Shown here: in pieces, positions 1 to 37,655 of the stretch | How positions within the stretch are numbered: the stretch's first letter is position 1 | How the letters are laid out: the number at the start of each line of letters is the position of its first letter | Sequence record: OQ417968.1 | Source of the DNA: Mycobacterium phage prophiT36-2b | Direction: 5' to 3' (one strand) | DNA length: 37,655 nucleotides | Notes under the pieces: model-generated | The model's database searches: none | What the model was told of the DNA's origin: nothing | What the model saw: the letters and a program-made list of their open reading frames with translations, nothing else | Program-made: the position numbers and the translations under genes

Positions 1-33
1 GTAATGAATAGGTCCGGGGTTGGCTTCCCCTGG
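1..33. repeat. attL: attL core: imperfect direct repeat of 37616-37648 (positions 1-14 identical, ~30/33 overall). Reads as the 3' half of a tRNA (acceptor/T-arm) beginning in the anticodon loop region
   Basis: Direct comparison: gtaatgaataggtcCggggttGgCttcccctgg versus gtaatgaataggtcAggggttCgAttcccctgg. Confidence 0.75.
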
Positions 34-318
34 ATTGTCATCGCCGCCGCCGGGGCCACGGCCCGGAACGGGCTTTATCCCGGCCGTCACGTAGATGTAT
101 GAAATCCCGGTACCTGCGCAGGCGCGATCAAGCTCGTCCACTGCCCATGCGACCTTGCCTGAGATTCGAGTAGACATCGCCTGGGGCGAGATTCCCACCG
201 CGCGGGCCAGTTCGGTGTACTTGATCCGTCTGCCCGCGCACTCTTCACGGATGCGGCGGGCCACGGCAGCAGCCCGCGATTCGCCGCGATCACCATCAAC
301 AGCCATCAAGGTCGTCAT
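1..318 (-). CDS. Prophage repressor, XRE-family HTH. Integration-truncated form whose ORF runs off the left window edge through attL (>=106 codons here)
   Basis: Manual translation of minus frame from ATG 318-316: MTTLMAVDGDRGESRAAAVARRIREECAGRRIKYTELARAVGISPQAMSTRISGKVAWAVDELDRACAGTGISYIYVTAGIKPVPGRGPGGGDDNPGEANPGPIHY... with no stop before position 1. HTH motif IKYTELARAVGISPQAMSTRISG. Absent from the ORF track because no in-window stop. Divergent from the cro-like gene. Confidence 0.7.
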   Translation of the reverse strand, partial: MTTLMAVDGDRGESRAAAVARRIREECAGRRIKYTELARAVGISPQAMSTRISGKVAWAVDELDRACAGTGISYIYVTAGIKPVPGRGPGGGDDNPGEANPGPIHY

Positions 319-416
319 GAGGTGAACTTTAGGTCATTTCTGTTGCAAAGTCTATCGCTCAGCGGTAGTCATCTACGACACGCCGTAGAAATTCACGTCG
401 ATGGACTTGCGTCGAA

Positions 417-433
417 CTACTGCTGAGCAGTAG
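417..433. promoter_or_regulatory. 17-bp palindrome CTACTGCT-G-AGCAGTAG (8-bp arms), 10 bp upstream of the cro ATG. Additional GTAG(A/T)(A/T)C half-sites at ~365-376 and 388-395 in the rep-cro intergenic region. Candidate operator(s) / divergent promoters
   Basis: Read directly from sequence 319-443. Confidence 0.45.
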
Positions 434-443
434 AACTACATGC

Positions 444-677
444 ATGTCACTAATGACTACTGATCAGCGAGTGGCGGCGAATGTGCGGGCTGAGTTAGCC
501 CGTAGGCGGGTCAACCGGCAAGCCCTGGCCAAGGCGATGGGTATCGGCCCGATGGCCGTTTCGCGCCGGATGTCTGGTCAGGTTTCGTTTTCGATCGCCG
601 AGCTATTCCAAGTCGCTGAAATCCTGAAAGTTGACATCGCGGCACTCATCGCGATCGATCAGGCGATTGCATCGTGA
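444..677 (+). CDS. Cro-like HTH (XRE family) transcriptional regulator, 77 aa
   Basis: ORF track. HTH ALAKAMGIGPMAVSRRMSGQVSFSIAELFQVAEIL. Divergent to the repressor. Confidence 0.7.
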   Translation: MSLMTTDQRVAANVRAELARRRVNRQALAKAMGIGPMAVSRRMSGQVSFSIAELFQVAEILKVDIAALIAIDQAIAS

Positions 678-850
678 ACTGCGATCAGCCCAAGGCTGCG
701 GTGCCTCTGGGCGACTTTGGCATGCCCGGAGTTCCCCAGCCCTGACCCGCCCGCCAAACAACTGAATACGGAAATACCCCAGGGCCGGGCACCTCTGCCA
801 AGAACCACCCGGACCCTGGGGCCACTGCAACCAGGATAGGAGCCCCTGGC

Positions 851-1147
851 ATGTCCCACCGTAACCCCGACAGCTATCAGCGCGTCGGAACTATCCGGGC
901 CGCAATCATGCGACACGCCTTCTGGACCGTGGCCGCGCTGGCCCTCATCTACGCGCTCGTCATGCTATTCGCCTACCAGTACACGCAATTCGTCATCTGC
1001 ATGGCGCTCGTGCTGGTCGCGTCCTGCATTGATCTGTGGGTGCATCGTCGCGGGCGTTACCGCGACCGATCAGCCACATTGCTGCTGTCCGCAGTGGTGG
1101 GCATCGCGGTAACGGCAGTCCTCGCGCAGGTGGGGGTGACCGCGTGA
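851..1147 (+). CDS. Small membrane protein (2-3 TM helices), 98 aa
   Basis: ORF track. Hydrophobic segments. RBS aggataggag upstream. Confidence 0.55.
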   Translation: MSHRNPDSYQRVGTIRAAIMRHAFWTVAALALIYALVMLFAYQYTQFVICMALVLVASCIDLWVHRRGRYRDRSATLLLSAVVGIAVTAVLAQVGVTA

Positions 1148-1383
1148 AGCTCATGCAGCTGTTCGAGTTCCGGCGCCGCATCCCTGACTCGCGGAATGTG
1201 TTGCAGCTCAACAAGAGTATCGACAAGGCGGGCTCCGTCATGGATATGTTCGCCGAGACTGCCGACGCTGCCGGGTTTGATCTGGGGGCCGACGCCGATG
1301 GTGTCGAACTGGCGCTGGTGGACTTCTTCACGGACCGCGATGCGCGGGAGCAGGCGAGCGCCGCGCTCAGGGCGGGTGCCTAA
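1144..1383 (+). CDS. Hypothetical protein (~79 aa)
   Basis: GTGA start/stop overlap with upstream gene. Acidic C-terminus. The track ORF 1036..1383 was trimmed to the coupled start. Confidence 0.45.
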   Translation: MKLMQLFEFRRRIPDSRNVLQLNKSIDKAGSVMDMFAETADAAGFDLGADADGVELALVDFFTDRDAREQASAALRAGA

Positions 1384-1613
1384 TGCAGCAGCCCACCAAG
1401 GCATTTGCCGACATGATGCTTGAACTCGCCGACCGGCTACAGGCAGTCCTGACCGAGATATACCCGGACGGGAACAATCAAGGCAGTCTGATCGTCAGCC
1501 CGGACTCGTTGCGGGCGGCTGGCCGACACTACGCGGCCCTGGCCGAGCAGCGCCGGGTGGAGATTCTGGCGCAGCTCAGGAAGTTCCAAGCCGAGCGCAG
1601 GCCCCCGCAGTGA
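1383..1613 (+). CDS. Hypothetical protein, 76 aa
   Basis: ORF track. TAATG overlap coupling. Confidence 0.5.
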   Translation: MQQPTKAFADMMLELADRLQAVLTEIYPDGNNQGSLIVSPDSLRAAGRHYAALAEQRRVEILAQLRKFQAERRPPQ

Positions 1614-1942
1614 TCGGCATGATTCCTGGTCGCAAGTTTATTGATGACCTTGGCAGACAGTGGGAATGGTGCGGAGGTCGGCCCGGAACATGGGCATGGC
1701 GCCTCACCGCGTTGCCCTGTGAAGGCCACAGCGCAGACCTGGCCGACCATCAGCCGATCGGCGAATATCCACCAATCGATATGTACGACCTGGTGCCCAT
1801 TGAGCGGAAAGTCGGGGCGCTTATGGCTGTGCAGCTCGCGTGCGAGGCGCTTTCCAGCTTCATCGGCGTGGAGCTATTACCAGGATTCACAGACGATTTC
1901 GCGGCGGTCCTGCGGCTACCGCCCGCCGCGTCCAACATCTAG
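1610..1942 (+). CDS. Hypothetical protein, 110 aa
   Basis: ORF track. GTGA overlap with upstream gene. Confidence 0.5.
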   Translation: MIGMIPGRKFIDDLGRQWEWCGGRPGTWAWRLTALPCEGHSADLADHQPIGEYPPIDMYDLVPIERKVGALMAVQLACEALSSFIGVELLPGFTDDFAAVLRLPPAASNI

Positions 1943-1957
1943 CAGGGAGGCCCGTTC

Positions 1958-2275
1958 ATGTCACGTTCCGAAGACCCGACCCTTGTCAATCTGGAAACAG
2001 CCGCCAGCGCATCGGGCGAAATCACTTCCATGACAGGTGATTCCATCGAAATACAGGGGAACTTCACCCCTGGTCAGGCATTGGTGCTACGCCCCGGCGC
2101 AAGGGTGTTCGTCCTGGCCGTCGATGACGCCATCGAGATCCTTGACGGCCTCACCGCCGACGCCGCCGCCGAGGCCGCAGCTGCCGCCGCCGCTAAAGCC
2201 GCCCATGAGGTCGCTAAGGCGGTCGCTACCGCCGCAGGACAGGCGGTCGAGAAGATACAGGCTGGTCTCGAATGA
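1958..2275 (+). CDS. Hypothetical protein, Ala-rich C-terminus, 105 aa
   Basis: ORF track. RBS agcagggagg. Confidence 0.5.
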   Translation: MSRSEDPTLVNLETAASASGEITSMTGDSIEIQGNFTPGQALVLRPGARVFVLAVDDAIEILDGLTADAAAEAAAAAAAKAAHEVAKAVATAAGQAVEKIQAGLE

Positions 2276-3420
2276 AGTTTGCGATCGACACCGATCTTCT
2301 CGCCGAGACCATCGCGGCGGCAATCAGTTCCGTGCCATCGCGCCCGACCTCGCCGGTCCTGGGCGGTGTGTTGATCGAAGCACAGATTGGCGCGGTCACG
2401 ATGTCTAGTTTCAACTACGACCGCGCCACCAAGCGCACCGCGCCCGCTATGGACGTTGCCGAGCCTGACACCGTTGTTGTCTCGGGCAAGCTGCTGGGGG
2501 CGATCGGGGGCAACCTGCCCCGCAACAAAGACGCCACCGTTGACGTGAGCGGCCAAGAAATGGTTATCACGGCTGGCCGCACCGCGTTCCGGCTCCCGCT
2601 GCTGCACGCCGAGGACTACCCGAACCTGCCGATCATGAAACCCGACGAGGACACCATCGGGACGGTCGATGGTGACACGTTCGCCGAGGCCGTCCAAGTC
2701 ATCGGCGCGTTGGCCTCCACCGACGAACAGCCCGCCAATCTCACCGGCATCAACCTCACTTTCAGCTCAAACGGGTTGTGGCTGTGCGCTACTGACCGAT
2801 ACATCGTTGGTCGGCGCCGCCTGGACTGGGCGGGCAACACGCAGGCTCAGGCCCTTGTCCCGGCTGCCGATCTGCTCGCAACAATCAAGGCAGTGGCAGG
2901 CCCGGCCCCCGAAGATGTCGAAATCCTGCTGCGCAACGGATCGATGTTTGGTCTGCGCACCTCGGCGACCACCGTCATGACCAGTTGCCTCGGTGAGGAA
3001 TTCCCGCCGATGGAAAGGGTACTGACGCCCGCTGTCTATTCCGCGGTGTCCACCGTGCCCACGGCGGAGCTGGCCTACATGCTGCGGCGGGCGTCGTCCA
3101 TCGCCGACGACGGCTACGCCCAGATTGACATCGAAGTCGATGCCGGGGGCCTGTCGGTCACCACCACCAAGAGCGCGACCGGCAAGGTCAACGACAGCAT
3201 TGCCTCTGAGCACCAAGGTGATTACCGCCGCGTCGCTTTGTCGTCGCGGCGCCTGCACAGCGCGCTATCGGTGGTTGATGACCCCGAGGTGAGCTTGGGT
3301 TTCCGCGCGACCGGACATCTGGTCGGTATCCACCCTGGCGCACTGGAGCGCACAGACGACGAAGTTGACCTGCTGGCGTGCAACAACTTCGCCCTACTCA
3401 TGGGGATTTCAGGCAAGTGA
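2272..3420 (+). CDS. dnaN: DNA polymerase III beta sliding clamp homologue (DnaN-like), 382 aa
   Basis: Pattern matches to mycobacterial DnaN: PVLGGVLI, TAFRLPLLHAEDYPNLP, LTGINLTF...ATDRYIVGRRRLDW, ALVPAADLL. ATGA overlap start. Confidence 0.8.
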   Translation: MKFAIDTDLLAETIAAAISSVPSRPTSPVLGGVLIEAQIGAVTMSSFNYDRATKRTAPAMDVAEPDTVVVSGKLLGAIGGNLPRNKDATVDVSGQEMVITAGRTAFRLPLLHAEDYPNLPIMKPDEDTIGTVDGDTFAEAVQVIGALASTDEQPANLTGINLTFSSNGLWLCATDRYIVGRRRLDWAGNTQAQALVPAADLLATIKAVAGPAPEDVEILLRNGSMFGLRTSATTVMTSCLGEEFPPMERVLTPAVYSAVSTVPTAELAYMLRRASSIADDGYAQIDIEVDAGGLSVTTTKSATGKVNDSIASEHQGDYRRVALSSRRLHSALSVVDDPEVSLGFRATGHLVGIHPGALERTDDEVDLLACNNFALLMGISGK

Positions 3421-3590
3421 TGGCAACCTGCGCCGCTCCCGCAGGAGCCCCAGTACACATCTACCGCTTCTATGCCTGGCAGCGCGGGAAGTGTGACGGC
3501 GGTTGCGGATTCCAACTCAAACCAGGCGACCTCGTAACCAGACGCGGCAATGAATTCAGCTGCAACACATGCGCAGAAAGGTGGAACTGA
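3420..3590 (+). CDS. Small Cys-rich (zinc-ribbon-like) protein, ~56 aa
   Basis: TGATGG overlap with dnaN-like stop. CDGGCG...CNTC motif. Trimmed from track ORF 3378..3590. Confidence 0.4.
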   Translation: MATCAAPAGAPVHIYRFYAWQRGKCDGGCGFQLKPGDLVTRRGNEFSCNTCAERWN

Positions 3591-3745
3591 TGGGCGAGCG
3601 ACGACGCATCAACCTTGACGGGGCCGAAGACAGGCTAGGCGGCGACGACTTGGATATCAGGACCGCGACGGCTATGGCGCTGATCGACATTGCCGAGACG
3701 TTGCGAGACATCTACGACTCCATGCCGTCAAGGTGGGACTGACTG
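3590..3745 (+). CDS. Small hypothetical protein (51 aa)
   Basis: Manual translation MGERRRINLDGAEDRLGGDDLDIRTATAMALIDIAETLRDIYDSMPSRWD. Tightly packed in the operon (TGATG overlap upstream, next ATG 1 nt after stop). Below track length cutoff. Confidence 0.4.
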
Positions 3746-4486
3746 ATGACCCACAGCGCTACACGGTTCTTCTGGTCGTGGCTGATCGGCTCGGCGGCGT
3801 TCTCCATCCTTGGTGTCGTCACGCACGCGATCCTCGGTGATGCGCGCTCGGCGCTGATCGCCTCGGTGCTCGCGGTCGGCATCGTGGTGATCCAGCTGTG
3901 CGCCACGTACGGCGTGCACGCCTTGGTTCAGGAACGCATCACCGGCGCCGCGTACCGGTGGGCGCTGGCGATCGCCGTAGCGCTGGCCCTCGGTGCGTTC
4001 GTGCTCAACTTCGTGGCGCTGCGCGATCTGGTGATCACCTGGGCGGGCACCGCGCCCGTCATCGCGTGGATCGTGCCGCTAATCATCGACCTGGGTATGA
4101 CGGCGAGCACTCTGGCGATACTGGCGCTCACCGACGCGCAACGCACCGAACAACTGCACGCATCGGCGCATCCTGCCGCACAACCAGCGGCCACGGTGCA
4201 CGTCGAAGTACACAACACGGTGCGCACCGAAGCGCATGCCCTCGCGCAACCCGCGCAGGCCGGTGTGCAGTCCGATCAGGCTGCCGTGCATGCTGCGGTC
4301 GCTGCACGCCTCACCGCTGCGGGCGTGGTGCGCATCGCCCCTGAACGCATCGTGAACGTCCTTGACGCGCACGCCGAGGGGATCAGGCCGGGAACCATCG
4401 CGCGATCCCTGGGTGTCGGGTTCAGCACCGTCAAGAACATCGTCGCGGCGCTCGCGGTCGAAGGGGCCGACCCCCATGGCGCCTAA
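3746..4486 (+). CDS. Membrane protein (4 predicted TM) with C-terminal HTH domain, 246 aa
   Basis: ORF track. Hydrophobic N-half. C-terminal IARSLGVGFSTVKNIV HTH. Confidence 0.6.
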   Translation: MTHSATRFFWSWLIGSAAFSILGVVTHAILGDARSALIASVLAVGIVVIQLCATYGVHALVQERITGAAYRWALAIAVALALGAFVLNFVALRDLVITWAGTAPVIAWIVPLIIDLGMTASTLAILALTDAQRTEQLHASAHPAAQPAATVHVEVHNTVRTEAHALAQPAQAGVQSDQAAVHAAVAARLTAAGVVRIAPERIVNVLDAHAEGIRPGTIARSLGVGFSTVKNIVAALAVEGADPHGA

Positions 4487-4727
4487 CGCACCGGCACCCG
4501 TGGTGCGCCGCATGTTCGCCCTGTTCCGCGAGGGCGGCGTGCAGCCGCGCCCGGACCGTCTTGCCGTCGCGTCATACATCACATGGCGGCGCATCGGGTC
4601 CACCGATGACCTTGCCGAGGACGACATTCGGGCGATCGTCGCGACGCTGGAGTACTGGCGTTTGGCCGGCCAAATCGAGTACAGGTGCCGCCGCATCGCC
4701 GAATCAATGCAGGAGGTGCCAGCGTAG
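4476..4727 (+). CDS. Hypothetical protein (~83 aa)
   Basis: Internal ATG of track ORF 4362..4727, overlapping the upstream stop by 11 nt. Confidence 0.45.
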   Translation: MAPNAPAPVVRRMFALFREGGVQPRPDRLAVASYITWRRIGSTDDLAEDDIRAIVATLEYWRLAGQIEYRCRRIAESMQEVPA

Positions 4728-5582
4728 ATGCTCACATTCGAGAACCGCCGCAAGTGGACTCGCCTAGTCCTGCGGATGCCCAGCGCCGAGCTGTCCGCGT
4801 CGTGCAAGACGGTCCTGCTGGCGCTGGAAAGCTACGCGGACTACCGCGACGGCACCGGGGCACACCCTGGCGAGGAGAACCTCTCCAAGGCAGCCGACGT
4901 GAACGTGCGAACCGTGCGGCGTGCACTGGCCACAGGGCGCGCGCTGGGACTGATCGAACAGACATCGGCGGCAAACTCAAAGGCGGGCAAGGCAGCCGAA
5001 TATAGCCTCACCCTGCCGGGGATCGCGGACGTTACGACCGGACACCCGAGTCCTGTGGACAACTCCACGACCGGACACCTCAGTCCTGTGAACAACTCCA
5101 CGACCGGACACCACAGTCCTGTCGAAACAGTCCACGACCGGACAAATGCGACGCCACGACCGGACACTGGTGTCCTCCCACCTAAGCCCTACACCAATAA
5201 CCTAGGGGTGTTACTTAACTCGGGTACCTCACCAGCCCCGCGCATCGCCGAGGACACACACCCCGAGCCTCCTTCGCGATTCTGCGATGAGCACCCGATG
5301 GGAACTCGGGTCAACTGCGGCAAGTGCGGCAACGCGCGAACTGCGTTCGACGCCTGGCAAGCTCACCAGGCCGTCCGCGATGTCGAGATCGCCCAGTCCG
5401 ACACCCGACGCCGCCATGAGCAGCGCGTCAACTGCCCGTGGTGCCATGGCACCAACGTCCGCGACATCGGCGCTGACCTCGTGGAGAAATGCGACCACCA
5501 GGAGCCTCCACGATCCCGTAGAACCCTCTCGCTGGTCCCACCGCTGCCGAGTGGACCCGAAAACGTCAGGGCGGCGCAGTGA
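4728..5582 (+). CDS. Winged-HTH DNA-binding protein with C-terminal zinc-finger motifs (replication-initiator-like), 284 aa. Contains internal 33-bp tandem repeats
   Basis: ORF track. wHTH TVLLALESYADYRDG...LSKAADVNVRTVRRALATGRALGLIEQ. CGKC...CPWC motifs. TAGATG coupling. Confidence 0.6.
   Translation: MLTFENRRKWTRLVLRMPSAELSASCKTVLLALESYADYRDGTGAHPGEENLSKAADVNVRTVRRALATGRALGLIEQTSAANSKAGKAAEYSLTLPGIADVTTGHPSPVDNSTTGHLSPVNNSTTGHHSPVETVHDRTNATPRPDTGVLPPKPYTNNLGVLLNSGTSPAPRIAEDTHPEPPSRFCDEHPMGTRVNCGKCGNARTAFDAWQAHQAVRDVEIAQSDTRRRHEQRVNCPWCHGTNVRDIGADLVEKCDHQEPPRSRRTLSLVPPLPSGPENVRAAQ
5034..5176. repeat. Iteron-like array: five copies of ACGACCGGACA at 33-bp spacing (first three units near-perfect over 33 bp), ending in the perfect palindrome GGACACTGGTGTCC (5162-5175). 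Candidate origin/operator array inside the initiator-like gene
   Basis: Copies start at 5034, 5067, 5100, 5134, 5156. Translated as TTGHPSPVDNS-type peptide repeats. Confidence 0.55.
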
Positions 5583-5818
5583 GCCCGCAATCCGGCCCCG
5601 CCGACACAGACGCCGACCCCGCCGCATTCGTACGCGGACCCGGCAGGCGTCGCCGCAGCGCACCGGGACCGGTCTACGACGCCTACGCGGTCAACGGCGC
5701 CATCAACCGCACCTGCCCGACATGCCAGGCACTGCCCATGCAGTACTGCCAAGGCCCCAACGGTGCCCTGCGCAAAAGCCCCTGCCAGAAACGACTTTCA
5801 GAGAGGCAAGACAGCTGA
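5579..5818 (+). CDS. Small Cys-rich protein (CPTC...C...C), 79 aa
   Basis: ORF track. GTGA overlap with upstream stop. Confidence 0.45.
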   Translation: MSPQSGPADTDADPAAFVRGPGRRRRSAPGPVYDAYAVNGAINRTCPTCQALPMQYCQGPNGALRKSPCQKRLSERQDS

Positions 5819-6693
5819 TGACGACCGAGTGCCGCAACAAAGCCTGCAAGCGCGCATCGCAGCTGTTCCTGTGCGACGACTGCACCACGGTCCTGCGCAA
5901 CATGCTCGACCAGGTGCCCGCTCTGCTGGCCGAACTCGATGCCCGCATCCAGAAGCTCGACCGCGTACCGCACGGCACCATCGGGCGCCGCCGTGGACCG
6001 TCAGATCTGAACGTTATGGACTTCGATGCCGTCGAGACCGCCCGTGAAACCCGAAAGATGCTGCGCCGCTGGGTCGCAACCGTCGCCGAGCAGCACAACG
6101 GGCGGCGCCCGCCTGGCCTAGACACCGTGGAAACCCGCATGTTCGCCCGCTGGCTACAGGTCAACGCCGATGCCATCGCACGACTCGAAATCGCCGGAAA
6201 GATCTACGACGACATCAAGAAGTTGGTGGGCTCCGATCAACGAGGTGGCCAGCTCGTGCGGGCCATCGACCGACGCGAACGGCACTTCGCCGGGGCATGC
6301 CCGACCATCACGGGATGGGACGCGCACGGTCGCGTCATCGAGTGCGGAGAAATCCTCTACGACGAATACGGCGACAGGACAATCGATTGCCCAACCTGCG
6401 GGCAGGAAATCGACGTAAAACGCAACCAGGTTAAGGCCCTCGCCACCCGCGACCTCATGCCGTCAGACGCATTGCTCGAAGCCCTTGAAAACGCGGGGGA
6501 CACGATCGAGGCCGAACAGATCGAACGCTGGATCGCCATCAAACGGCTACGCCCACGTGGCTACATGCACCAAGGGAAATTCGTCAAAACCCGTGTGCAA
6601 GAGGCTGATAGCGCTCTATACAGCTTCGAGAATGCACGCAGACTGCTACGAAAAGACAACCGGCACAGCATGAAACAGAAAGTGAACCGATGA
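5818..6693 (+). CDS. Hypothetical protein with several CxxC zinc-ribbon motifs (~291 aa)
   Basis: In-frame ATG of track ORF 5287..6693 that overlaps the upstream stop (TGATG). The longer N-terminal extension overlaps gene 4728..5582 and is Arg/Pro-rich, typical of a wrong frame. Confidence 0.55.
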   Translation: MTTECRNKACKRASQLFLCDDCTTVLRNMLDQVPALLAELDARIQKLDRVPHGTIGRRRGPSDLNVMDFDAVETARETRKMLRRWVATVAEQHNGRRPPGLDTVETRMFARWLQVNADAIARLEIAGKIYDDIKKLVGSDQRGGQLVRAIDRRERHFAGACPTITGWDAHGRVIECGEILYDEYGDRTIDCPTCGQEIDVKRNQVKALATRDLMPSDALLEALENAGDTIEAEQIERWIAIKRLRPRGYMHQGKFVKTRVQEADSALYSFENARRLLRKDNRHSMKQKVNR

Positions 6694-28033: not shown

Positions 28034-29086
28034 ATGCCCTGGTCTCCGAACCCGGCTGCGTCGCCTCGACGATCGGGCGGTAAGTGGTCTGCGCACCCGG
28101 TTGTGCCGTTGCGTAGATCTACCGGAAAGTGGATCTGGGTACCGCGCCTGGGTGCTGCCGATACCGGCGTTGGTGAGGACTCGGCAAGCCTGCTGGCCCG
28201 CTTGACGGCCACCGACAACGGCCTCGGTCAAGATCGCGGCGCACTGCTCGCGCACCTGTCCGGCCTAGACGACGGTCTGGGCTCTGACCGGGCCGCGCTA
28301 CTGGCCCACCTCACCGGAACCGACACCGCTATCGGCGAGGGCTCGGGCACGGTGTTCCTGAAGTACTTCCTGTCGGGAACTGACGACGCCATCGGCTACG
28401 ACACCGCCGCACTGCTCGCTCACCTCACAGGGAGCGAGGACAGCATCGGGTCCGATCTAGCCGCGCTACTGGTGCACCTGACGGGCCGTGACGACGGACT
28501 GGGCTACGACAGCGCCACCGTGGCCCGCTCGCCGACTGCGCCCCTGCGCACCGACTTCACCGCGACCGGCGCCTACAACTATGCGATTCCCGAGTGGTCC
28601 CTGATCATCGACTACGCGCTGTGGGCCGGTGCCGCATCAGGGCAGACCGGCAACGGCGCCGTCAATACGGCGGGCAAGGGCGGCAAGGCCGGTCAACTGA
28701 TCACCGGCACCCTGATACGTGGCGTTGACATTCCCTGGAGCCTGGCCGCCATCACCGGCACCGTAGGCGCAGGTGGTGCGCAACCCGCCAACAGCGACGG
28801 CGCGGGTCCGACCGCAGGCGCCAACACAACCGCCGTGATAAACGGCGCCACCCAGACCGCGATCGGCGGCAGTGGGCAGGCATCAAGTCAGAACGGCGAA
28901 ACCGCCGCCAGCGCCACCATCGCCGGAACCAACTACACGGGCGGTCCGGGCGGCACCGGGAACGGCAGCGCAGGAACCGCACCGGGCGGCGCTGGCGCGG
29001 GCGGAAACGGCGGCATCTTCGGCTCCCGCACACGCGGTGGGCCGGGCGGCAACGGACAAGCGTCATTCAGGGCACGTCAAACCTAA
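28034..29086 (+). CDS. Glycine-rich minor tail protein with 5-6 tandem 18-aa (54-bp) repeats (ALLAHLTGxDDxxGxDxA), 350 aa
   Basis: ORF track. DNA repeats at ~28187-28510. Gly-rich GGxGGxG C-terminus. Confidence 0.65.
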   Translation: MPWSPNPAASPRRSGGKWSAHPVVPLRRSTGKWIWVPRLGAADTGVGEDSASLLARLTATDNGLGQDRGALLAHLSGLDDGLGSDRAALLAHLTGTDTAIGEGSGTVFLKYFLSGTDDAIGYDTAALLAHLTGSEDSIGSDLAALLVHLTGRDDGLGYDSATVARSPTAPLRTDFTATGAYNYAIPEWSLIIDYALWAGAASGQTGNGAVNTAGKGGKAGQLITGTLIRGVDIPWSLAAITGTVGAGGAQPANSDGAGPTAGANTTAVINGATQTAIGGSGQASSQNGETAASATIAGTNYTGGPGGTGNGSAGTAPGGAGAGGNGGIFGSRTRGGPGGNGQASFRARQT

Positions 29087-33305: not shown

Positions 33306-34799
33306 TTAGTTATTGACCCACTGCCACAGTTTGCCTAGCTCGCCGCCGAATTCCTTTGGATCAACTGTAATTTCAAATCCCGGTTTGGCGCCTATGCCGA
33401 ATGCTAGGCCCCAGCTGCCGCCGATCTTCCATTTGTGGTCCGGGGTCTCGGCAAAGGTGAGATGTGCTCCGGCGCCCGCGCCAGCCCACTCCTGTACTTC
33501 ACCCTTCACTTGGAGACCGTGGCCCTCGTAGTCGAGATGCTGACCGCCACCGATGCCACCGAAGGCGCCACCGCCGATCTGAATTCCGTTCTCTGCTACT
33601 GCTTTACCGTTGGTGTATTCCTCGACACCTAGGCGACCGGCGGTGCCTGCCTCTATCTTGCTGCCGTCCCCCAGGTCCCAATGGATATTGCCCTTGTTGT
33701 CTATCAGGTATGCGCCCGCGTGTTGCTTGCCCGAAACGGCGTCTTTCTTGACTTCGCCCTCGGCGCCGAATTTTGCTTCCAGCTGTTTGGAATTGAGTTC
33801 CCAGTCCCCGCCGAATGCGTGCCCCTTGCGGCCCCACTCGTTGACCTCGCCGCCGAGCTCTCCGGTCTCGCCTTTCGCGATCGTGGGGCCTGAGCCGTCG
33901 CCGATCTTGGTCGGATCGCCGAACTTGCCTCCGATAGTTGTGCCGGTGGGCGTGGTGTTCTTGCCCTCCGGGGACTTGTCTACGCCCTTACCGGCCTGGG
34001 TGCCAAAGTCCTTGTCCTTCTTGAGCAATTCCTGTTCAGGGATCGGAATCTCCGGCTTGCCTAACTTGTCCTTGAGTGGGACTCCGGGCTGATCCTGCGT
34101 CTGCGGCAACCGACCAAGGGTGTCGGTCATGCTACCGACGCCAGCCGGTGTGGTCGCTGCCGGTTCCCCGGATAGCAGTTTCTGGACTTCCGTTGGTGCG
34201 AAGGCTTGTGGGTTCGTCTCGGCTACGGCGGCGCGTACGGCTGTGCGCCCGTTGGCGCCGACCGCGCTCAGGTTGATCGCGCCCGCGATTTGCGACTCGG
34301 CGCTATGGATTTTGTCCGCAACGCCCTGCGATGCCGAAAACCATTTGCCCGCGCTGTCTTTAAGTTCGTCAGCCGCAGCGGCCACAGTCTGTTTGTTCTT
34401 CGCTGCTTGCTCATCGCTCATCCCATCCGGGGCGGTGTAGGTCATCGTGTAATCCTGATTGACCGTTACGCCCTGGATCTGGCGAGCGTTGTCAACGATG
34501 TTGTGCCCATTGTTCAGAGCTGGCACCACTTCGTAGGTGACAGCGGCAGTCACCTCGGTCACCAGGCCCTCCACCGTGTCGTGGATGGAGGTGATCGCGT
34601 TTGTGTCCTGGCCAGCTTTGTCCTGCGCGGCGGTGGCCGTCTTGCCCCACCAATCCGTCCCACCTGGCGCGTACACGCCCGATTTGTACTCCGCGTAGTC
34701 GGACACCAGCGCCCGCATTTCAGCGGCCCAGCCGGGGACGTGCTCTAAATATGAGTTGGGGTTGATTGCCATGAATTCATCCAGCGGCGGAAGGGACAT
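33306..34799 (-). CDS. Polymorphic-toxin-like protein: N-terminal WXG (DWWGK) helical domain, Pro/Lys/Gly-rich linker, Gly-rich C-terminal domain, 497 aa
   Basis: ORF track. WxG motif ~residue 50. Low-complexity linker. C-terminal repeats GxWxL.../AKFGAEGEV/KGEVQEW/GIGAKPGFE. Confidence 0.55.
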   Translation of the reverse strand: MSLPPLDEFMAINPNSYLEHVPGWAAEMRALVSDYAEYKSGVYAPGGTDWWGKTATAAQDKAGQDTNAITSIHDTVEGLVTEVTAAVTYEVVPALNNGHNIVDNARQIQGVTVNQDYTMTYTAPDGMSDEQAAKNKQTVAAAADELKDSAGKWFSASQGVADKIHSAESQIAGAINLSAVGANGRTAVRAAVAETNPQAFAPTEVQKLLSGEPAATTPAGVGSMTDTLGRLPQTQDQPGVPLKDKLGKPEIPIPEQELLKKDKDFGTQAGKGVDKSPEGKNTTPTGTTIGGKFGDPTKIGDGSGPTIAKGETGELGGEVNEWGRKGHAFGGDWELNSKQLEAKFGAEGEVKKDAVSGKQHAGAYLIDNKGNIHWDLGDGSKIEAGTAGRLGVEEYTNGKAVAENGIQIGGGAFGGIGGGQHLDYEGHGLQVKGEVQEWAGAGAGAHLTFAETPDHKWKIGGSWGLAFGIGAKPGFEITVDPKEFGGELGKLWQWVNN

Positions 34800-35729: not shown

Positions 35730-35802
35730 GCCGCCTTAGCTCAGTCGGTAGAGCAGCTCACTCGTAATGAGCAGGTCAGCGGTTCGATTCCGCTAGGCGG
35801 CT
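35730..35802 (+). tRNA. tRNA-Thr (anticodon CGU), 73 nt, no encoded CCA
   Basis: Manual fold: acceptor GCCGCCT/AGGCGGC, D-arm GCTC AGTCGGTAG AGCA, anticodon stem GCTCA/TGAGC with loop CTCGTAA, T-arm AGCGG TTCGATT CCGCT. Confidence 0.85.
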
Positions 35803-35807
35803 CTCCT

Positions 35808-36700
35808 TTATGCCGCGTCGCCGTCCGTCAATATGAGGGACGGTATCGGCGCCCCTCCGATGGGTAGCTGTAGCCGCTCGATGCCTTCTGCTCGGCGTTC
35901 GTTCTTCACCTGGGTGTAGATCTGGGTTGACTGGATGCTCGCGTGGCGGGCGAGTTCCTGGGTGGTTCGCAGGTCTACGCCAGCCTCCAGTAGCGCGGTG
36001 CAATACCAATGACGCAACCGGTGACCGGCGCCCTGTACGCCTGCACGGGTGAATACCTGTCCAAGCGTGTGGCTGACCGACTCGCGGCGAACATGCCCGC
36101 CACTCTTGCTTGGAAACCAGTGCCCCTTGCGAGGCATTTGGTACGCGATTTCGACAACCAGCGGGTGAAGGGGAAGCACCTTCGTGACGTTGCCCTTGCC
36201 GTGCACGATCATCGTGCGGGCGATCAGGTCGAAGTGCTCGCCCTTGACCTTGGCGATTTCGTGCACTCGGAGTCCTTGCAGTGTGGCTAGCAGCGCCATA
36301 GCGCGTGTTCGTTTCCACATCCGAACGCGCAGGATGCGTCCCAGCTCCTCATCGGTCACTGGTCGCGGCTCGCTCTTGGGACGCCGGGGCGATGGAATGT
36401 GGAGCATCGGATTGTCTATGCGATGCCCCTGCGTTTGCAGCCACGAGAACCACGCACGCAATGTGCTGTGATACGTCCAGCGGGTTCGCGCTGACCAGCC
36501 TTCGTCACTGTCGGCCCCTTCGGCGAGCCACCGAACGATGTGTTCCAGTGTTGCGAGTTCCGGAGCCACGCCGCACCACTCGGCCATCCGCCTCACGGTC
36601 CACGCGCGCTCGGTGACTGTGCGAACAGACAGCGATTGCGCGTATTGCCATGTTGCCCAAAGGTGCAAGAGTGATGTGTGGTGTGAGTGAAGGTTCAGCA
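35808..36700 (-). CDS. int: Tyrosine integrase (site-specific recombinase), ~297 aa from Met at 36700 (alternative upstream start at 36821). C-terminus ...LTDGDAA
   Basis: Catalytic motifs HRLRHWY and IYTQV (Tyr). N-terminal core-binding/SAM-like domain. Abuts the tRNA 3' end. Confidence 0.85.
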
Positions 36701-36951
36701 TTCCGCCCCCTGATGATGAGTTGATGGTTTTCGGCTCCCTGGATTCCCCCCGGTCTCCATGCCGCTCGGCAGAGCACGAAACTATGGCGAGATGGGCTCG
36801 GCCACAAGCCTTTTCGGTCACTGTTTGAGCACCTTCCTGTAACTATTGGCACGGGCGTCCCATCGTGGCTTTGGCTCGGCTACCAGCAGATTTGGGTTTG
36901 GCATGCAGAAATGTTCCACGTGGCAATAACGTGATTTGACTGTTGCGAAAT

Positions 36952-37206
36952 TCAACGGTCCGCGAGGAATAGGGCAAATCGGTCGGTTTTGCCAATTCCG
37001 TAGAATCGCCGTCGCTCGCGTGAGCGGGATTGACCTTCGCCCCACAGCATTACGCCGTTCAACGCGTAGACGACACTCGCGTAGGCCGGTGTGCCGGGCA
37101 ATCGGAATACACACTCATGCACCGGGCCTAACACATCCGAGGTGCCACCGTTGGATATCCAGCCGTGCACGAGGGCCGTGCGGGCGTGGTGCTGCGCGTC
37201 GGTCAT
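36952..37206 (-). CDS. Hypothetical protein, 84 aa
   Basis: ORF track. ATGA-coupled to the upstream minus-strand ORF. Confidence 0.45.
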   Translation of the reverse strand: MTDAQHHARTALVHGWISNGGTSDVLGPVHECVFRLPGTPAYASVVYALNGVMLWGEGQSRSRERRRFYGIGKTDRFALFLADR

Positions 37207-37538
37207 CGACTCGCACCCTTGTCATAGGCAGCGACGACGAGCTTCAACACCGCTTCGGCTTGGGCGCGGTCGGCGACTTTGGCGGATAGTAGCTCTCCGG
37301 CCCGATCGCCCATGTAGACGGCCCACCCCGTAACCCAGTCCTTGGCCCACGCCACTGTGCGCAGGGCTCGCATCGCCGCCAGGCAGTCCCCGTCGTCCAC
37401 GATCGCGGTCGCTTCGCAGTCGTAGTGGGCGCGACTGAACGGGCGCTCAGCCTCGTCACCGCTGCGCCGGTATTCGACGTGAGCGCCGCACGCACAGCGT
37501 CGAACCCGAATGGTGGCGCCCTCGGTCGCCCTGCTCAC
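37203..37538 (-). CDS. Hypothetical protein, 111 aa (GTG start)
   Basis: ORF track. Its GTG start overlaps the stop of the repressor C-terminal reading frame (GTGA). Confidence 0.45.
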   Translation of the reverse strand: MSRATEGATIRVRRCACGAHVEYRRSGDEAERPFSRAHYDCEATAIVDDGDCLAAMRALRTVAWAKDWVTGWAVYMGDRAGELLSAKVADRAQAEAVLKLVVAAYDKGASR

Positions 37539-37615
37539 GCCGCGATCCGATCAGGCGTGACGGTCGGCACAGTGCTCATGAATAGGGGGACGATTTGGGC
37601 GTCTTTGTCAGACTT
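37535..37615 (-). other. Orphaned 3' end of the virion-form repressor gene: 26 sense codons (KSDKDAQIVPLFMSTVPTVTPDRIAA) plus stop. In-frame with the attL-side repressor ORF if core 37616-37648 is replaced by core 1-33
   Basis: Manual translation of the minus strand from 37615 in the frame that continues codon 3-1 of the left arm. Confidence 0.55.
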
Positions 37616-37648
37616 GTAATGAATAGGTCAGGGGTTCGATTCCCCTGG
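37616..37648. repeat. attR: attR core. With flanks 37613-37655 it is the 3' half of a tRNA-Thr(UGU)-like gene (anticodon loop CTTGTAA, T-arm AGGGG TTCGATT CCCCT, acceptor GGGTGGC). No tRNA 5' half upstream
   Basis: Direct repeat of 1-33. Manual tRNA alignment against tRNA-Thr(CGT) at 35730. Confidence 0.75.
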
Positions 37649-37655
37649 GTGGCTC

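What the first reader, a model, noticed from the sequence alone, without database searches (positions are those of the whole stretch)
1..318. Repressor gene is split by the attachment site (integration-dependent-immunity architecture)
The XRE-type repressor ORF on the minus strand runs without a stop from 318 through the attL core and off the window. If the right arm, core and left arm are joined as in the inferred attP, the same frame continues from position 1 into 37615-37535. That adds 26 residues ending ...TPDRIAA before a TGA, a C-terminal -AA that resembles an ssrA-type degradation tag. This is the layout described for mycobacteriophages with integration-dependent immunity (Broussard et al. 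2013), where integration removes the tag and yields a stable, active repressor. The predicted virion-form size of about 133 aa is close to the ~136 aa of those repressors.
Basis: partly seen in the sequence, partly recalled or inferred. Interest (0 to 1): 0.8.

Follow-up and report, generated by a model that had tools for sequence, protein, structure and literature searches.

The report
Prophage repressor gene split by attP

Summary
The minus-strand HTH repressor ORF is open from 318 to 1. Joined to 37615-37535 it gives a 132-aa protein ending PDRIAA, and its TGA overlaps the GTG of the next gene. Positions 1-33 and 37616-37648 are an imperfect common core (30/33 identical, exact over 1-14) covering the 3' half of host tRNA-Thr(CGU).

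The window has the length, cluster, attB site and tRNA count of prophiT36-2b (cluster MabB, 37,655 bp, attB-2). Amarh et al. 2023 (PMC9934374) already describe its integration-dependent immunity.

Points added here:
- In strain T36 the DNA left of position 1 is the tandem prophage prophiT36-2a, and the repressor stops at once (HY*, 106 aa).
- In solo lysogens the host tRNA supplies the stop (HYE*, 107 aa).
- The repressor shares PHROG 2328 with BPs gp33 and Brujita gp34, and the integrase also ends in -AA.
- Three phages read the same core in three different frames, yet all return to PDRIAA.
- In this phage's frame the native tRNA sequence has a TGA. The phage core differs at three positions, one of which removes that stop, and the tRNA rebuilt at attL is damaged (40.7 vs 71.5 Rfam bits).
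- The phage carries its own tRNA-Thr(CGU), which suggests tRNA-dependent lysogeny.

Verdict: interpretation supported, already known.

The parts
1..33 (.). attL-side common core, corresponding to the anticodon loop through the T-arm of tRNA-Thr(CGU). Positions 1-14 (GTAATGAATAGGTC) are the exact block where strand exchange must occur. Positions 15, 22 and 24 carry the phage-specific bases. The authors use a 40-bp core (1-40).
   Evidence: 30/33 identity with 37616-37648. (flanks differ on both sides of 1-14). (40-bp cores in the paper).
1..318 (-). Immunity repressor, first 106 codons (the prophage form). It has an HTH domain at about residues 15-68, then a Gly/Pro-rich linker that is encoded across the core. 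The stop codon lies just outside the window.
   Evidence: translation. (HTH_26, E = 3.6e-6, 27.5 bits against a cut-off of 22). (PHROG 2328). (97.5% identical over residues 1-79 to annotated MabB immunity repressors).
319..443 (.). Intergenic region between the repressor and the Cro-like gene. It holds inverted repeats (351-369 with 416-434) and a 17-bp near-palindrome at 417-433. These are candidate operator and divergent promoter sequences (inferred).
   Evidence: The consensus sigma-70 scan found no promoter.
444..677 (+). Cro-like HTH protein (77 aa), transcribed divergently from the repressor.
   Evidence: HTH_3, E = 1.1e-6. (PHROG 4583). (relatives' gene at this position annotated as a helix-turn-helix DNA-binding protein).
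35730..35803 (+). Phage-borne complete tRNA-Thr(CGU), with the same anticodon as the host tRNA at attB. It ends 4 nt before the integrase stop codon.
   Evidence: ARAGORN. (Rfam tRNA, 71.6 bits). (the paper notes that other MabB prophages lack it).
35808..36821 (-). Tyrosine integrase, ending ...LTDGDAA. It is 337 aa from GTG at 36821. Gene callers elsewhere start it at Met41, giving 297 aa.
   Evidence: Phage_integrase, E = 2.5e-21. (C-terminus; 85% identity to phiGD89-1 Int, 88% to prophiT36-2a Int, 61% to Brujita Int). (297-aa call).
36952..37206 (-). 84-aa ORF of unknown function between the repressor and the integrase. Its ATG overlaps the stop of the upstream ORF (ATGA). It is conserved in prophiT36-2a, and phiGD89-1 has an 84-aa gene at the same position.
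   Evidence: No Pfam or PHROG match.
37203..37538 (-). 111-aa ORF of unknown function. Its GTG start overlaps the TGA of the virion-form repressor (GTGA).
   Evidence: No Pfam or PHROG match.
37535..37615 (-). [quoted passage not shown] This ssrA-like tail is separated from the rest of the gene by integration.
   Evidence: (the PDRIAA* ending is shared with phiGD89-1, P3MA and prophiT36-2a). (the paper describes this remnant at attR-b).
37616..37655 (+). attR-side core. This is the host-derived, native 3' part of tRNA-Thr(CGU), from anticodon position 35 up to the first C of the CCA end. The remaining CA follows just outside the window.
   Evidence: (the flank continues CATCCC...). (identical to the intact tRNA in M. 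chelonae and 32 other species genomes).

Best explanation
The window is the integrated form of the temperate phage phiT36-2b (M. abscessus cluster MabB). It uses integration-dependent immunity.

In the circular or virion genome, 37615 is joined to 1. One leftward-oriented gene set then reads repressor (132 aa), 111-aa ORF, 84-aa ORF, tyrosine integrase. The attP core lies inside the repressor gene, in a Gly/Pro-rich linker after the HTH domain.

Both the 132-aa repressor (...DRIAA) and the integrase (...GDAA) end in an ssrA-like -AA motif. By analogy with BPs-type phages, that motif would make them unstable, so the long repressor gives no immunity.

Strand exchange within GTAATGAATAGGTC (1-14) at the tRNA-Thr(CGU) gene (attB-2) moves the last 26 codons, and the integrase gene set with them, to the far end of the prophage. 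A stop next to the junction ends the repressor after 106 or 107 residues. In solo lysogens the stop is TGA from the tRNA anticodon stem. In the T36 tandem it is TAG from prophiT36-2a. The result is a tag-less, stable, active repressor that would act on the operators at 319-443.

Shown here: the anatomy, the junctions, the homology and the conservation of the tail. Inferred from related systems: proteolysis of the long form, activity of the short form, and co-transcription of the repressor and integrase genes.

A further inferred step concerns the tRNA. This repressor crosses the core in the one frame where the native tRNA sequence carries TGA. The phage core differs from the tRNA at three positions, one of which removes that stop. 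The tRNA rebuilt at attL is therefore defective. The phage's own tRNA-Thr(CGU) probably compensates, which would be tRNA-dependent lysogeny.
For: **ORF and joined product.**

**Core and crossover block.**

**Prophage-form stops.**
- HYE* (107 aa) in the solo lysogen FVIN01000002.1, whose attL is in L002 and attR in L015.
- HY* (106 aa) in the T36-type tandem junction. L003 is 100% identical to the right end of prophiT36-2a over positions 1-1546, and about 99.9% identical to the window's left arm beyond that.

**Relatives.** The phage genome records of phiGD89-1 and P3MA hold a contiguous 144-aa repressor ending PDRIAA. It is followed by two small genes and the integrase, as in the inferred attP here. 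The 13 bases on the integrase side of the core (CTTTGTCAGACTT) are identical in phiGD89-1 and the window.

**Homology.** PHROG 2328 is the best family for the joined repressor (E = 1.3e-13), BPs gp33 (3e-41), Brujita gp34 (1e-39), phiGD89-1 gp40 and Gudmit gp36. BLASTP to Brujita gp34 gives E = 8e-8.

**-AA endings.**
- Repressors of the window, phiGD89-1, P3MA, prophiT36-2a, Gudmit and Brujita all end in AA.
- Integrases of the window, phiGD89-1, prophiT36-2a and Brujita end in AA.
- Background in the window: 3 of 299 ORFs of 50 aa or more; among 57 gene-like ORFs only the integrase.

**Selection on the tail.** Three phages read the same core in three different frames, and indels on either side bring each back to ...PDRIAA*.

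**tRNA.**
- With the host core the repressor frame reads GESNP*PIHY.
- Rfam tRNA scores: intact attB 71.5 bits, phage tRNA 71.6, attL chimera 40.7. The chimera has three non-standard pairs and a T-loop of UUGGCUU.

**Literature.**
- PMC9934374 describes this prophage, its integration-dependent immunity, its AA remnant and attP detected by PCR.
- PMC8092301 covers the MabB systems.
- PMC9262239 gives the mechanism.
- PMC10865867 describes tRNA-dependent lysogeny.
Against: - No stability or immunity data exist for either form of this particular repressor.
- Some integration-dependent repressors lack -AA. BPs gp33 ends KAS, and MabC, N, O and H repressors also lack it. The motif is therefore neither necessary nor proven sufficient.
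- The attP junction sequence was not found in IMG/VR.
- The 132-aa product was not among the three database homologues, and it could not be looked up directly. Direct attP evidence here rests on the published PCR and on relatives' phage genome records.
- No sigma-70-type promoter or terminator was detected by the simple scans, so the operon structure is inferred.
- The single-sequence AlphaFold model is too poor (mean pLDDT 39.8) to show that the tail is disordered.
- For the tRNA step: ARAGORN still calls the attL chimera a tRNA, and its function and the essentiality of t5010 in M. abscessus are untested.
- The paper proposes instead that the phage tRNA complements the defect made by prophiT36-2a.
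Confidence: 0.9

Rival explanations
1. This is conventional immunity. The repressor simply lies next to attL, and the open frame across the reconstructed attP and the -AA ending are coincidental. The 106/107-aa protein is the only functional form.
For: A 26-codon open extension is not unlikely by chance in GC-rich DNA (my rough estimate is about 0.5). The 132-aa product was not seen in the protein database.
Against: - The stop of the extension overlaps the next gene's start.
- The tail PDRIAA* is conserved in three phages that cross the core in three different frames.
- The tail is part of a contiguous annotated repressor in the phage genome records.
- AA endings are rare in the window.
- The repressor is homologous to the BPs and Brujita repressors.
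Confidence: 0.03
2. The gene is split as described, but the C-terminal 26 residues inactivate the virion form by a route other than ssrA/Clp-type proteolysis. Examples would be blocking dimerisation or DNA binding, or a different protease signal.
For: Several integration-dependent repressors have no -AA ending. BPs gp33 ends KAS, and MabC, N, O and H repressors 'presumably use alternative degradation systems'. The tail beyond the last two residues is conserved (PDRIAA).
Against: The integrase, which has an unrelated C-terminal sequence, also ends in -AA here and in relatives. That fits a shared degradation signal, as described for these systems.
Confidence: 0.07
3. On the side question of the tRNA: the phage tRNA-Thr(CGU) exists to rescue the defective tRNA made at attL-a by prophiT36-2a. 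This is the explanation favoured in the 2023 paper. It would not be there to compensate for phiT36-2b's own integration.
For: PMC9934374. In T36 the tRNA at attL-a has two acceptor-stem mismatches, and the tandem could have been selected for that reason.
Against: - Solo phiT36-2b-type lysogens exist. FVIN01000002.1 has both junctions directly on host tRNA sequence, and Logan DRR317499 (L001) has the same attL.
- There the phage's own attL tRNA is more damaged than attL-a: three non-standard pairs, loss of T-loop positions C56 and A58, and 40.7 vs 71.5 bits.
- A second variant of this repressor also ends in HYE, i.e. it was called directly at the host junction (P0001).
Confidence: 0.3
4. The prophage is a decayed remnant and the split repressor is a relic with no current switch function.
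For: None specific. The window alone cannot show activity.
Against: - All ORFs in the rep-int region are intact.
- Nearly identical copies occur in several strains.
- attP for prophiT36-2b was detected by PCR in cultures and supernatants (Table 3).
Confidence: 0.02

Closest known systems
prophiT36-2b / phiT36-2b of M. abscessus T36 (Amarh et al. 2023, PLoS One, PMC9934374)
   Same: It is the same element. The paper gives 37,655 bp, cluster MabB, one tRNA and attB-2 (tRNA-Thr t5010). It describes the repressor split by attP, the AA-tag remnant at attR-b, and the phage tRNA-Thr(cgt) about 2 kb from attR-b.
   Different: Nothing in the element itself differs. Additions here, which I did not find in the sections of the paper I read:
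- Solo lysogens and their HYE* stop.
- The TGA that the native core would place in this repressor's frame.
- Rfam scores for the chimeric tRNA.
- The frame difference from other MabB phages, with compensating indels.
Integration-dependent immunity of mycobacteriophages BPs, Brujita and Charlie (Broussard et al. 2013, as summarised in PMC9262239)
   Same: - attP inside the repressor ORF.
- A truncated prophage form.
- -AA tags on the repressor and the integrase (Brujita).
- A divergent cro-like gene, and a tRNA attB.
- The same PHROG family for the repressor.
- Brujita Int is 61% identical, and its repressor crosses a tRNA-Thr-like core in the same frame (ESNPRPIHY vs EANPGPIHY).
   Different: - Two extra genes lie between the repressor and the integrase.
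- Pairwise similarity to BPs gp33 is not significant.
- The core mismatches here damage the rebuilt tRNA. In BPs they 'do not impair normal base pairing'.
- The phage carries a replacement tRNA.
Other cluster MabB phages at attB-2 (phiGD89-1, phiGD21-1, P3MA, prophiGD08-2 and others; Dedrick et al. 2021, PMC8092301)
   Same: - About 84-86% DNA identity over much of the left arm.
- Repressor residues 1-79 are 97.5% identical.
- The same rep / two small ORFs / int layout, and the same PDRIAA tail and attB.
   Different: - They read the core in another frame (QGNRTPDLFITS), keep an exact copy of the tRNA 3' half, and add seven host-encoded residues (ELLYRLS) in the prophage form.
- According to the 2023 paper they lack the phage tRNA-Thr gene.
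- In the window, indels before and after the core shift the frame and then restore it.
tRNA-dependent lysogeny (Fionnbharth, cluster L and others; Guerrero-Bustamante & Hatfull 2024, PMC10865867)
   Same: A tyrosine integrase acts at a tRNA attB. The tRNA is not properly rebuilt at attL. [quoted passage not shown]
   Different: - The described cases share only about 8-11 bp of core. Here there is a 33-bp core at 91% identity with 14 exact bases.
- The described cases are not reported together with integration-dependent immunity.
- Whether the phage tRNA is required is untested here.

Membership tests
Integration-dependent immunity system (Broussard 2013; features as listed in PMC9262239 and PMC9934374) | The attP common core lies inside the repressor coding sequence | tested here: met
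   The core at 1-33 is translated as PGEANPGPIHY within the ORF 318..1, which continues into 37615..37535.
Integration-dependent immunity system (Broussard 2013; features as listed in PMC9262239 and PMC9934374) | [quoted passage not shown] | tested here: met
   107 aa (HYE*, TGA from the host tRNA) in the solo lysogen. 106 aa (HY*, TAG) at the T36 tandem junction. The virion form is 132 aa.
Integration-dependent immunity system (Broussard 2013; features as listed in PMC9262239 and PMC9934374) | [quoted passage not shown] | tested here: met
   It ends ...PDRIAA. The tail is conserved in relatives. AA endings are rare in the window.
Integration-dependent immunity system (Broussard 2013; features as listed in PMC9262239 and PMC9934374) | The long form is degraded and inactive, and the short form is stable and confers immunity | not testable with these tools
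   This needs protein stability and immunity assays. It is inferred from BPs-type systems.
Integration-dependent immunity system (Broussard 2013; features as listed in PMC9262239 and PMC9934374) | [quoted passage not shown] | tested here: met
   Int ends ...LTDGDAA. It is the only one of 57 gene-like ORFs ending in AA.
Integration-dependent immunity system (Broussard 2013; features as listed in PMC9262239 and PMC9934374) | rep and int lie in one operon in the viral genome, with a divergent cro-like gene | tested here: inconclusive
   Gene order and orientation fit. The first three genes have overlapping stops and starts, and no terminator-like site was found. The Cro-like gene is at 444-677. 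Transcription itself is not shown, and the scans found no promoter.
Integration-dependent immunity system (Broussard 2013; features as listed in PMC9262239 and PMC9934374) | attB overlaps a host tRNA gene, and the core rebuilds a functional tRNA in the lysogen | tested here: not met
   attB is tRNA-Thr(CGU). The rebuilt tRNA scores 40.7 bits against 71.5, has three non-standard pairs and an altered T-loop. The first half of the feature is met and the second is probably not. This is a departure from the canonical description, not from the immunity logic.
Repressor family of BPs gp33 / Brujita gp34 (PHROG 2328; Cro/C1-type HTH) | Significant profile match to the same family as the studied repressors | tested here: met
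   phrog_2328 matches: window 1.3e-13 (residues 12-117 to profile positions 8-114 of 128), BPs gp33 3.1e-41, Brujita gp34 1.4e-39. Pfam HTH_26 scores 27.5 bits against a cut-off of 22. Pairwise BLASTP: Brujita 8e-8, BPs not significant.
Cluster MabB M. abscessus prophages | Nucleotide similarity to MabB genomes and use of attB-2 | tested here: met
   84-86% identity over 52-69% of positions 1-6000 to the closest MabB prophages. attB-2 is tRNA-Thr t5010. The paper assigns the element to MabB.
tRNA-dependent lysogeny (PMC10865867) | A tyrosine integrase recombines at an attB that overlaps a host tRNA gene | tested here: met
tRNA-dependent lysogeny (PMC10865867) | [quoted passage not shown] | tested here: inconclusive
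   The exact core is 14 bp. The chimera loses 31 bits, has mismatches in the acceptor and T stems, and has lost C56 and A58. ARAGORN still calls it a tRNA, and its function is untested.
tRNA-dependent lysogeny (PMC10865867) | [quoted passage not shown] | tested here: met
   tRNA-Thr(CGU) at 35730-35803, 71.6 bits, with the same anticodon as the host gene.
tRNA-dependent lysogeny (PMC10865867) | The host tRNA is essential and the phage tRNA is required for viable lysogens | not testable with these tools
   This needs deletion of the phage tRNA and measurement of lysogeny frequency.

The most novel reading that the evidence does not exclude
phiT36-2b obligatorily couples two unusual lysogeny mechanisms. 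Its repressor crosses the attP core in the one reading frame where the native tRNA-Thr sequence contains TGA. The core has therefore diverged from the tRNA to keep the tagged repressor ORF open. As a result integration yields a crippled tRNA at attL, and the phage's own tRNA-Thr(CGU) becomes necessary for lysogen survival. That would be integration-dependent immunity plus tRNA-dependent lysogeny in one phage.

Natural solo lysogens imply that the tRNA serves the phage's own integration. They also make it at least as plausible that phiT36-2b entered attB-2 first in the T36 tandem, which is the reverse of the order favoured in the 2023 paper.
Probability: 0.5. Interest if true: 0.45.

Novelty: already known. 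Interest (0 to 1): 0.25.

Why it matters
Integration-dependent immunity ties the decision to become a lysogen to the physical act of integration. For M. abscessus it also has practical weight. Only the truncated repressor form can serve as a selectable immunity marker. Prophage immunity groups also shape which therapeutic phages can infect a clinical strain.

For this element the mechanism is already in the literature, so confirming it adds little.

The modest added value is evolutionary. The same 33-bp sequence has to serve as recombination site, tRNA 3' half and protein-coding sequence. This phage appears to have given up the tRNA role and carries a spare tRNA instead. That would link two recently described lysogeny variants, and it is directly testable.

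Tried and rejected
- **attP junction in IMG/VR.** An exact-match search for a 45-nt sequence spanning the 37615|1 junction gave no hit.
- **Large protein search with the 132-aa form.** It returned only three clusters, all prophage-form or partial. It gave no virion-form protein and too few sequences for C-terminus statistics.
- **Single-sequence AlphaFold2 model.** Mean pLDDT was 39.8, which cannot show whether the linker and tail are disordered. I did no fold search.
- **Consensus promoter and terminator scans of both arms.** Nothing was found. This says little for mycobacteria.
- **Broussard et al. 2013 (PMC3557535).** The paper is not held in the library. Its defining features were taken from later open papers by the same group.
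- **tRNA at 35730-35803 as the real attachment site.** I considered that the region beyond it might be a second element, and rejected this. That tRNA differs in sequence from the host gene. The host tRNA halves flank positions 1 and 37655 in solo lysogens. Relatives have the same rep-to-int order in contiguous phage genome records.
- **Target tRNA as tRNA-Thr(UGU).** I inferred this at first from ACTT|GTAATG at attR, and rejected it. The T at the wobble position is phage-derived, and the host gene has CGT.
Full report

Yes. The minus-strand frame of 1-318 is open for 106 codons, from ATG at 318-316. It encodes MTTLMAVDGDRGESR...NPGEANPGPIHY.

The window ends in an imperfect direct repeat. Positions 1-33 and 37616-37648 match at 30 of 33 positions, and the first 14 bases (GTAATGAATAGGTC) are exact.

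Placing 37535-37615 in front of 1-318 continues the frame for 26 codons (KSDKDAQIVPLFMSTVPTVTPDRIAA) to TGA at 37537-37535. This TGA overlaps the GTG start of the next minus-strand ORF, 37538-37203.

A 26-codon open stretch is not unusual in GC-rich DNA, so the continuity alone proves little. The context makes it meaningful:
- Only 3 of 299 ORFs of at least 50 aa end in Ala-Ala.
- Among 57 gene-like ORFs, only the integrase does.

**2. What is the element?**

tblastn of the joined protein finds annotated "immunity repressors" of M. abscessus cluster MabB prophages and phages, 97.5% identical over residues 1-79. The left 6 kb of the window is 84-86% identical to those genomes.

The window matches prophiT36-2b of M. 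abscessus T36 as listed in the literature: 37,655 bp, cluster MabB, one tRNA, attB-2. Amarh et al. 2023 (PMC9934374) state that it uses an integration-dependent immunity system. [quoted passage not shown] They also detected attP by PCR in cultures and supernatants.

**3. Where does the prophage form end?**

There are two situations.

*In the source strain.* In T36 (and T38, T48) the prophage is the right-hand member of a tandem pair. The DNA left of position 1 is the right arm of prophiT36-2a, not host DNA.
- The last 40 bases of the prophiT36-2a record equal window 1-40 (H32).
- Contigs L003-L005 are 100% identical to the prophiT36-2a right end over L003 1-1546. Beyond that they are about 99.9% identical to the window's left arm.
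- There the junction reads ...ACTA|GTAATG. The repressor ends HY-TAG, giving 106 aa.

*In solo lysogens.* A 99.9%-identical phage sits alone at the same site in assembly GCA_900134025.1 (contig FVIN01000002.1).
- L002 shows the host holB-like gene and the 5' half of tRNA-Thr immediately left of the core.
- L015 shows the native tRNA 3' end and CCA to the right.
- A Logan contig from run DRR317499 (L001) shows the same attL and host flank.
- In FVIN01000002.1 the flank reads ...ATTCACTC|GTAATG. The repressor ends HYE-TGA, giving 107 aa. The stop is supplied by the 5' strand of the tRNA anticodon stem.

The bases flanking 1-14 differ between attL and attR on both sides, in the pattern expected for host and phage origin. 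Strand exchange must therefore lie within those 14 bases.

**4. Is the attP reconstruction right?**

Three lines of evidence support it.
- The phage genome records of phiGD89-1 and P3MA contain a contiguous 144-aa repressor ending ...PDRIAA*. It is followed by two small genes and a tyrosine integrase. This is the order obtained by joining 37615 to 1.
- The 13 bases on the integrase side of the core (CTTTGTCAGACTT) are identical in phiGD89-1 and in the window at 37603-37615.
- attP PCR was positive for prophiT36-2b.

I could not find the junction itself in IMG/VR, nor the 132-aa protein in the protein collection.

**5. Homology to the studied systems**

- Pfam assigns a Cro/C1-type HTH (HTH_26, 27.5 bits against a cut-off of 22) to residues 22-68.
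- PHROG 2328 is the best family for the joined repressor (E = 1.3e-13, covering profile positions 8-114 of 128). It is also the best family for BPs gp33 (3e-41), Brujita gp34 (1e-39), phiGD89-1 gp40 and Gordonia phage Gudmit gp36.
- Pairwise BLASTP reaches Brujita gp34 (E = 8e-8) but not BPs gp33.
- Much of the Brujita match is the core-encoded peptide (ESNPRPIHY vs EANPGPIHY). It reflects a shared tRNA-Thr-type core read in the same frame, so it is partly constraint rather than descent.
- The integrase (Phage_integrase, E = 2.5e-21) is 85% identical to phiGD89-1 Int, 88% to prophiT36-2a Int and 61% to Brujita Int.
- The integrase ends ...GDAA. Those three also end in AA.

**6. Evidence that the tail is functional**

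The reverse complement of the tRNA can be read in three frames.
- Other MabB phages use the frame ...TQGNRTPDLFITS.
- prophiT36-2a uses ...GGIEPPTYSL.
- The window uses ...PGEANPGPIHY.

Alignment of the three genes shows indels before and after the core. These change the frame across the core and then restore it. All three proteins end ...PDRIAA* directly before the next gene. Keeping the last residues while the linker frame varies argues for selection on the C-terminal tag.

The 2023 paper notes the frame difference between the two T36 phages. In the sections I read, I did not see the comparison with other MabB phages.

**7. A consequence for the tRNA**

In the window's frame the native tRNA sequence reads GESNP*PIHYE*, with a TGA inside the T-stem. 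The phage copy of the core differs from the tRNA at positions 15, 22 and 24. One change turns TGA into GGA. The other two turn Ser into Ala. Beyond position 33 the phage sequence no longer resembles the acceptor stem.

The tRNA rebuilt at attL in solo lysogens therefore has:
- two non-standard acceptor pairs;
- one non-standard T-stem pair;
- a T-loop of UUGGCUU in place of UUCGAUU.

It scores 40.7 bits with the Rfam tRNA model. The intact gene scores 71.5 bits (M. chelonae, identical in sequence), and the phage's own tRNA-Thr(CGU) at 35730-35803 scores 71.6 bits. By contrast, phiGD89-1 keeps an exact copy of the tRNA 3' half.

[quoted passage not shown] Here it probably is not. The arrangement matches the sequence-level features of tRNA-dependent lysogeny. 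That paper cites the 2023 paper only for integration-dependent immunity, and a term search of its text found no mention of T36 or MabB.

The 2023 paper speculates that the phage tRNA rescues the milder defect made by prophiT36-2a at attL-a, and therefore favours phiT36-2a integrating first. The solo lysogens suggest instead that the tRNA serves phiT36-2b's own integration. This is inference. The function of the chimera and the essentiality of t5010 are untested, and ARAGORN still calls the chimera a tRNA.

**8. Mechanism, with shown and inferred steps marked**

- *Shown:* the gene anatomy, both junction types, the position of the crossover block, homology, conservation of the tail, and the rarity of AA endings.
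- *Inferred from BPs-type systems:* the long repressor and the integrase are degraded through their C-terminal tags. Integration yields a stable repressor that binds operators in the 319-443 region, where there are inverted repeats and a 17-bp near-palindrome. After integration the integrase genes are cut off from the repressor promoter.
- *Uninformative:* simple promoter and terminator scans and the single-sequence structure model.

**9. Verdict**

The feature is already known for this exact prophage. The residual interest lies in the probable coupling with tRNA-dependent lysogeny and in the frame-shifting evolution of the core-encoded linker. Both are modest and testable.

Noticed in passing
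window 35730-35803 (+), next to the integrase stop at 35808: A complete tRNA-Thr(CGU) scores 71.6 Rfam bits and has the same anticodon as the host tRNA at attB. Its stems differ from the host gene by compensatory changes. It ends 4 nt before the 3' end of the integrase gene, a layout that resembles a captured former attachment-site tRNA.
   Followed up: partly
L002 5524-5596 (attL of a solo lysogen, FVIN01000002.1): The tRNA rebuilt by integration of this phage scores 40.7 bits, against 71.5 for the intact gene. It has three non-standard pairs and an altered T-loop (UUGGCUU). tRNA function is probably lost at attL, unlike in canonical integration-dependent immunity phages.
   Followed up: yes
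L001/L002/L015 versus L003-L005: The same phage (99.9% identical) occurs in two arrangements. One is a solo prophage flanked by host tRNA halves. The other is the right-hand member of a tandem pair with prophiT36-2a. This bears on the order of integration events discussed in the 2023 paper.
   Followed up: partly
window 1-120 and 37535-37615, compared with L007 (phiGD89-1) and L012/L013 (prophiT36-2a): Three phages that use the same tRNA core translate it in all three reading frames. Indels on either side return each protein to the same ...PDRIAA* ending.
   Followed up: yes
window 5028-5176, inside the 284-aa ORF 4728-5582 (+): Three tandem 33-nt units and a fourth, more distant, related copy (ACGACCGGACACnnnAGTCCTGT...). 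The last copy holds a short palindrome (GGACACTGGTGTCC). They encode the repeated peptide TTGH(P/L/H)SPV. They could be iteron-like binding sites or simply a repetitive linker.
   Followed up: no
window 2272-3420 (+): The phage encodes a DNA polymerase III beta sliding-clamp homologue. Pfam domains come, and relatives' annotation.
   Followed up: no
window 28255-28516, inside ORF 28034-29086 (+): Four degenerate copies of a 40-nt unit, spaced 54-108 nt apart, lie within a 350-aa ORF downstream of the large 1385-aa and 921-aa ORFs. I did not examine them.
   Followed up: no
window 33306-34799 (-) and neighbouring ORFs up to the tRNA: A 497-aa ORF has no Pfam or PHROG match. It sits where relatives annotate WXG100 / polymorphic toxin and immunity genes next to attR.
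   Followed up: no
L015 1-5880 (host side of attR in FVIN01000002.1): The DNA just beyond the tRNA 3' end encodes an HNH endonuclease, a faint HTH_23 match and several proteins with no domain hit. It could be another mobile element next to the same tRNA.
   Followed up: no
L009 (Gordonia phage Gudmit gp36) and PhrostedPhlake gp44: These Gordonia phage repressors are 56-62% identical to the window's HTH domain. Gudmit's ends ...DSVAA after a tRNA-like core peptide, with a tyrosine integrase downstream. The same repressor lineage therefore appears to run integration-dependent immunity in another genus.
   Followed up: partly
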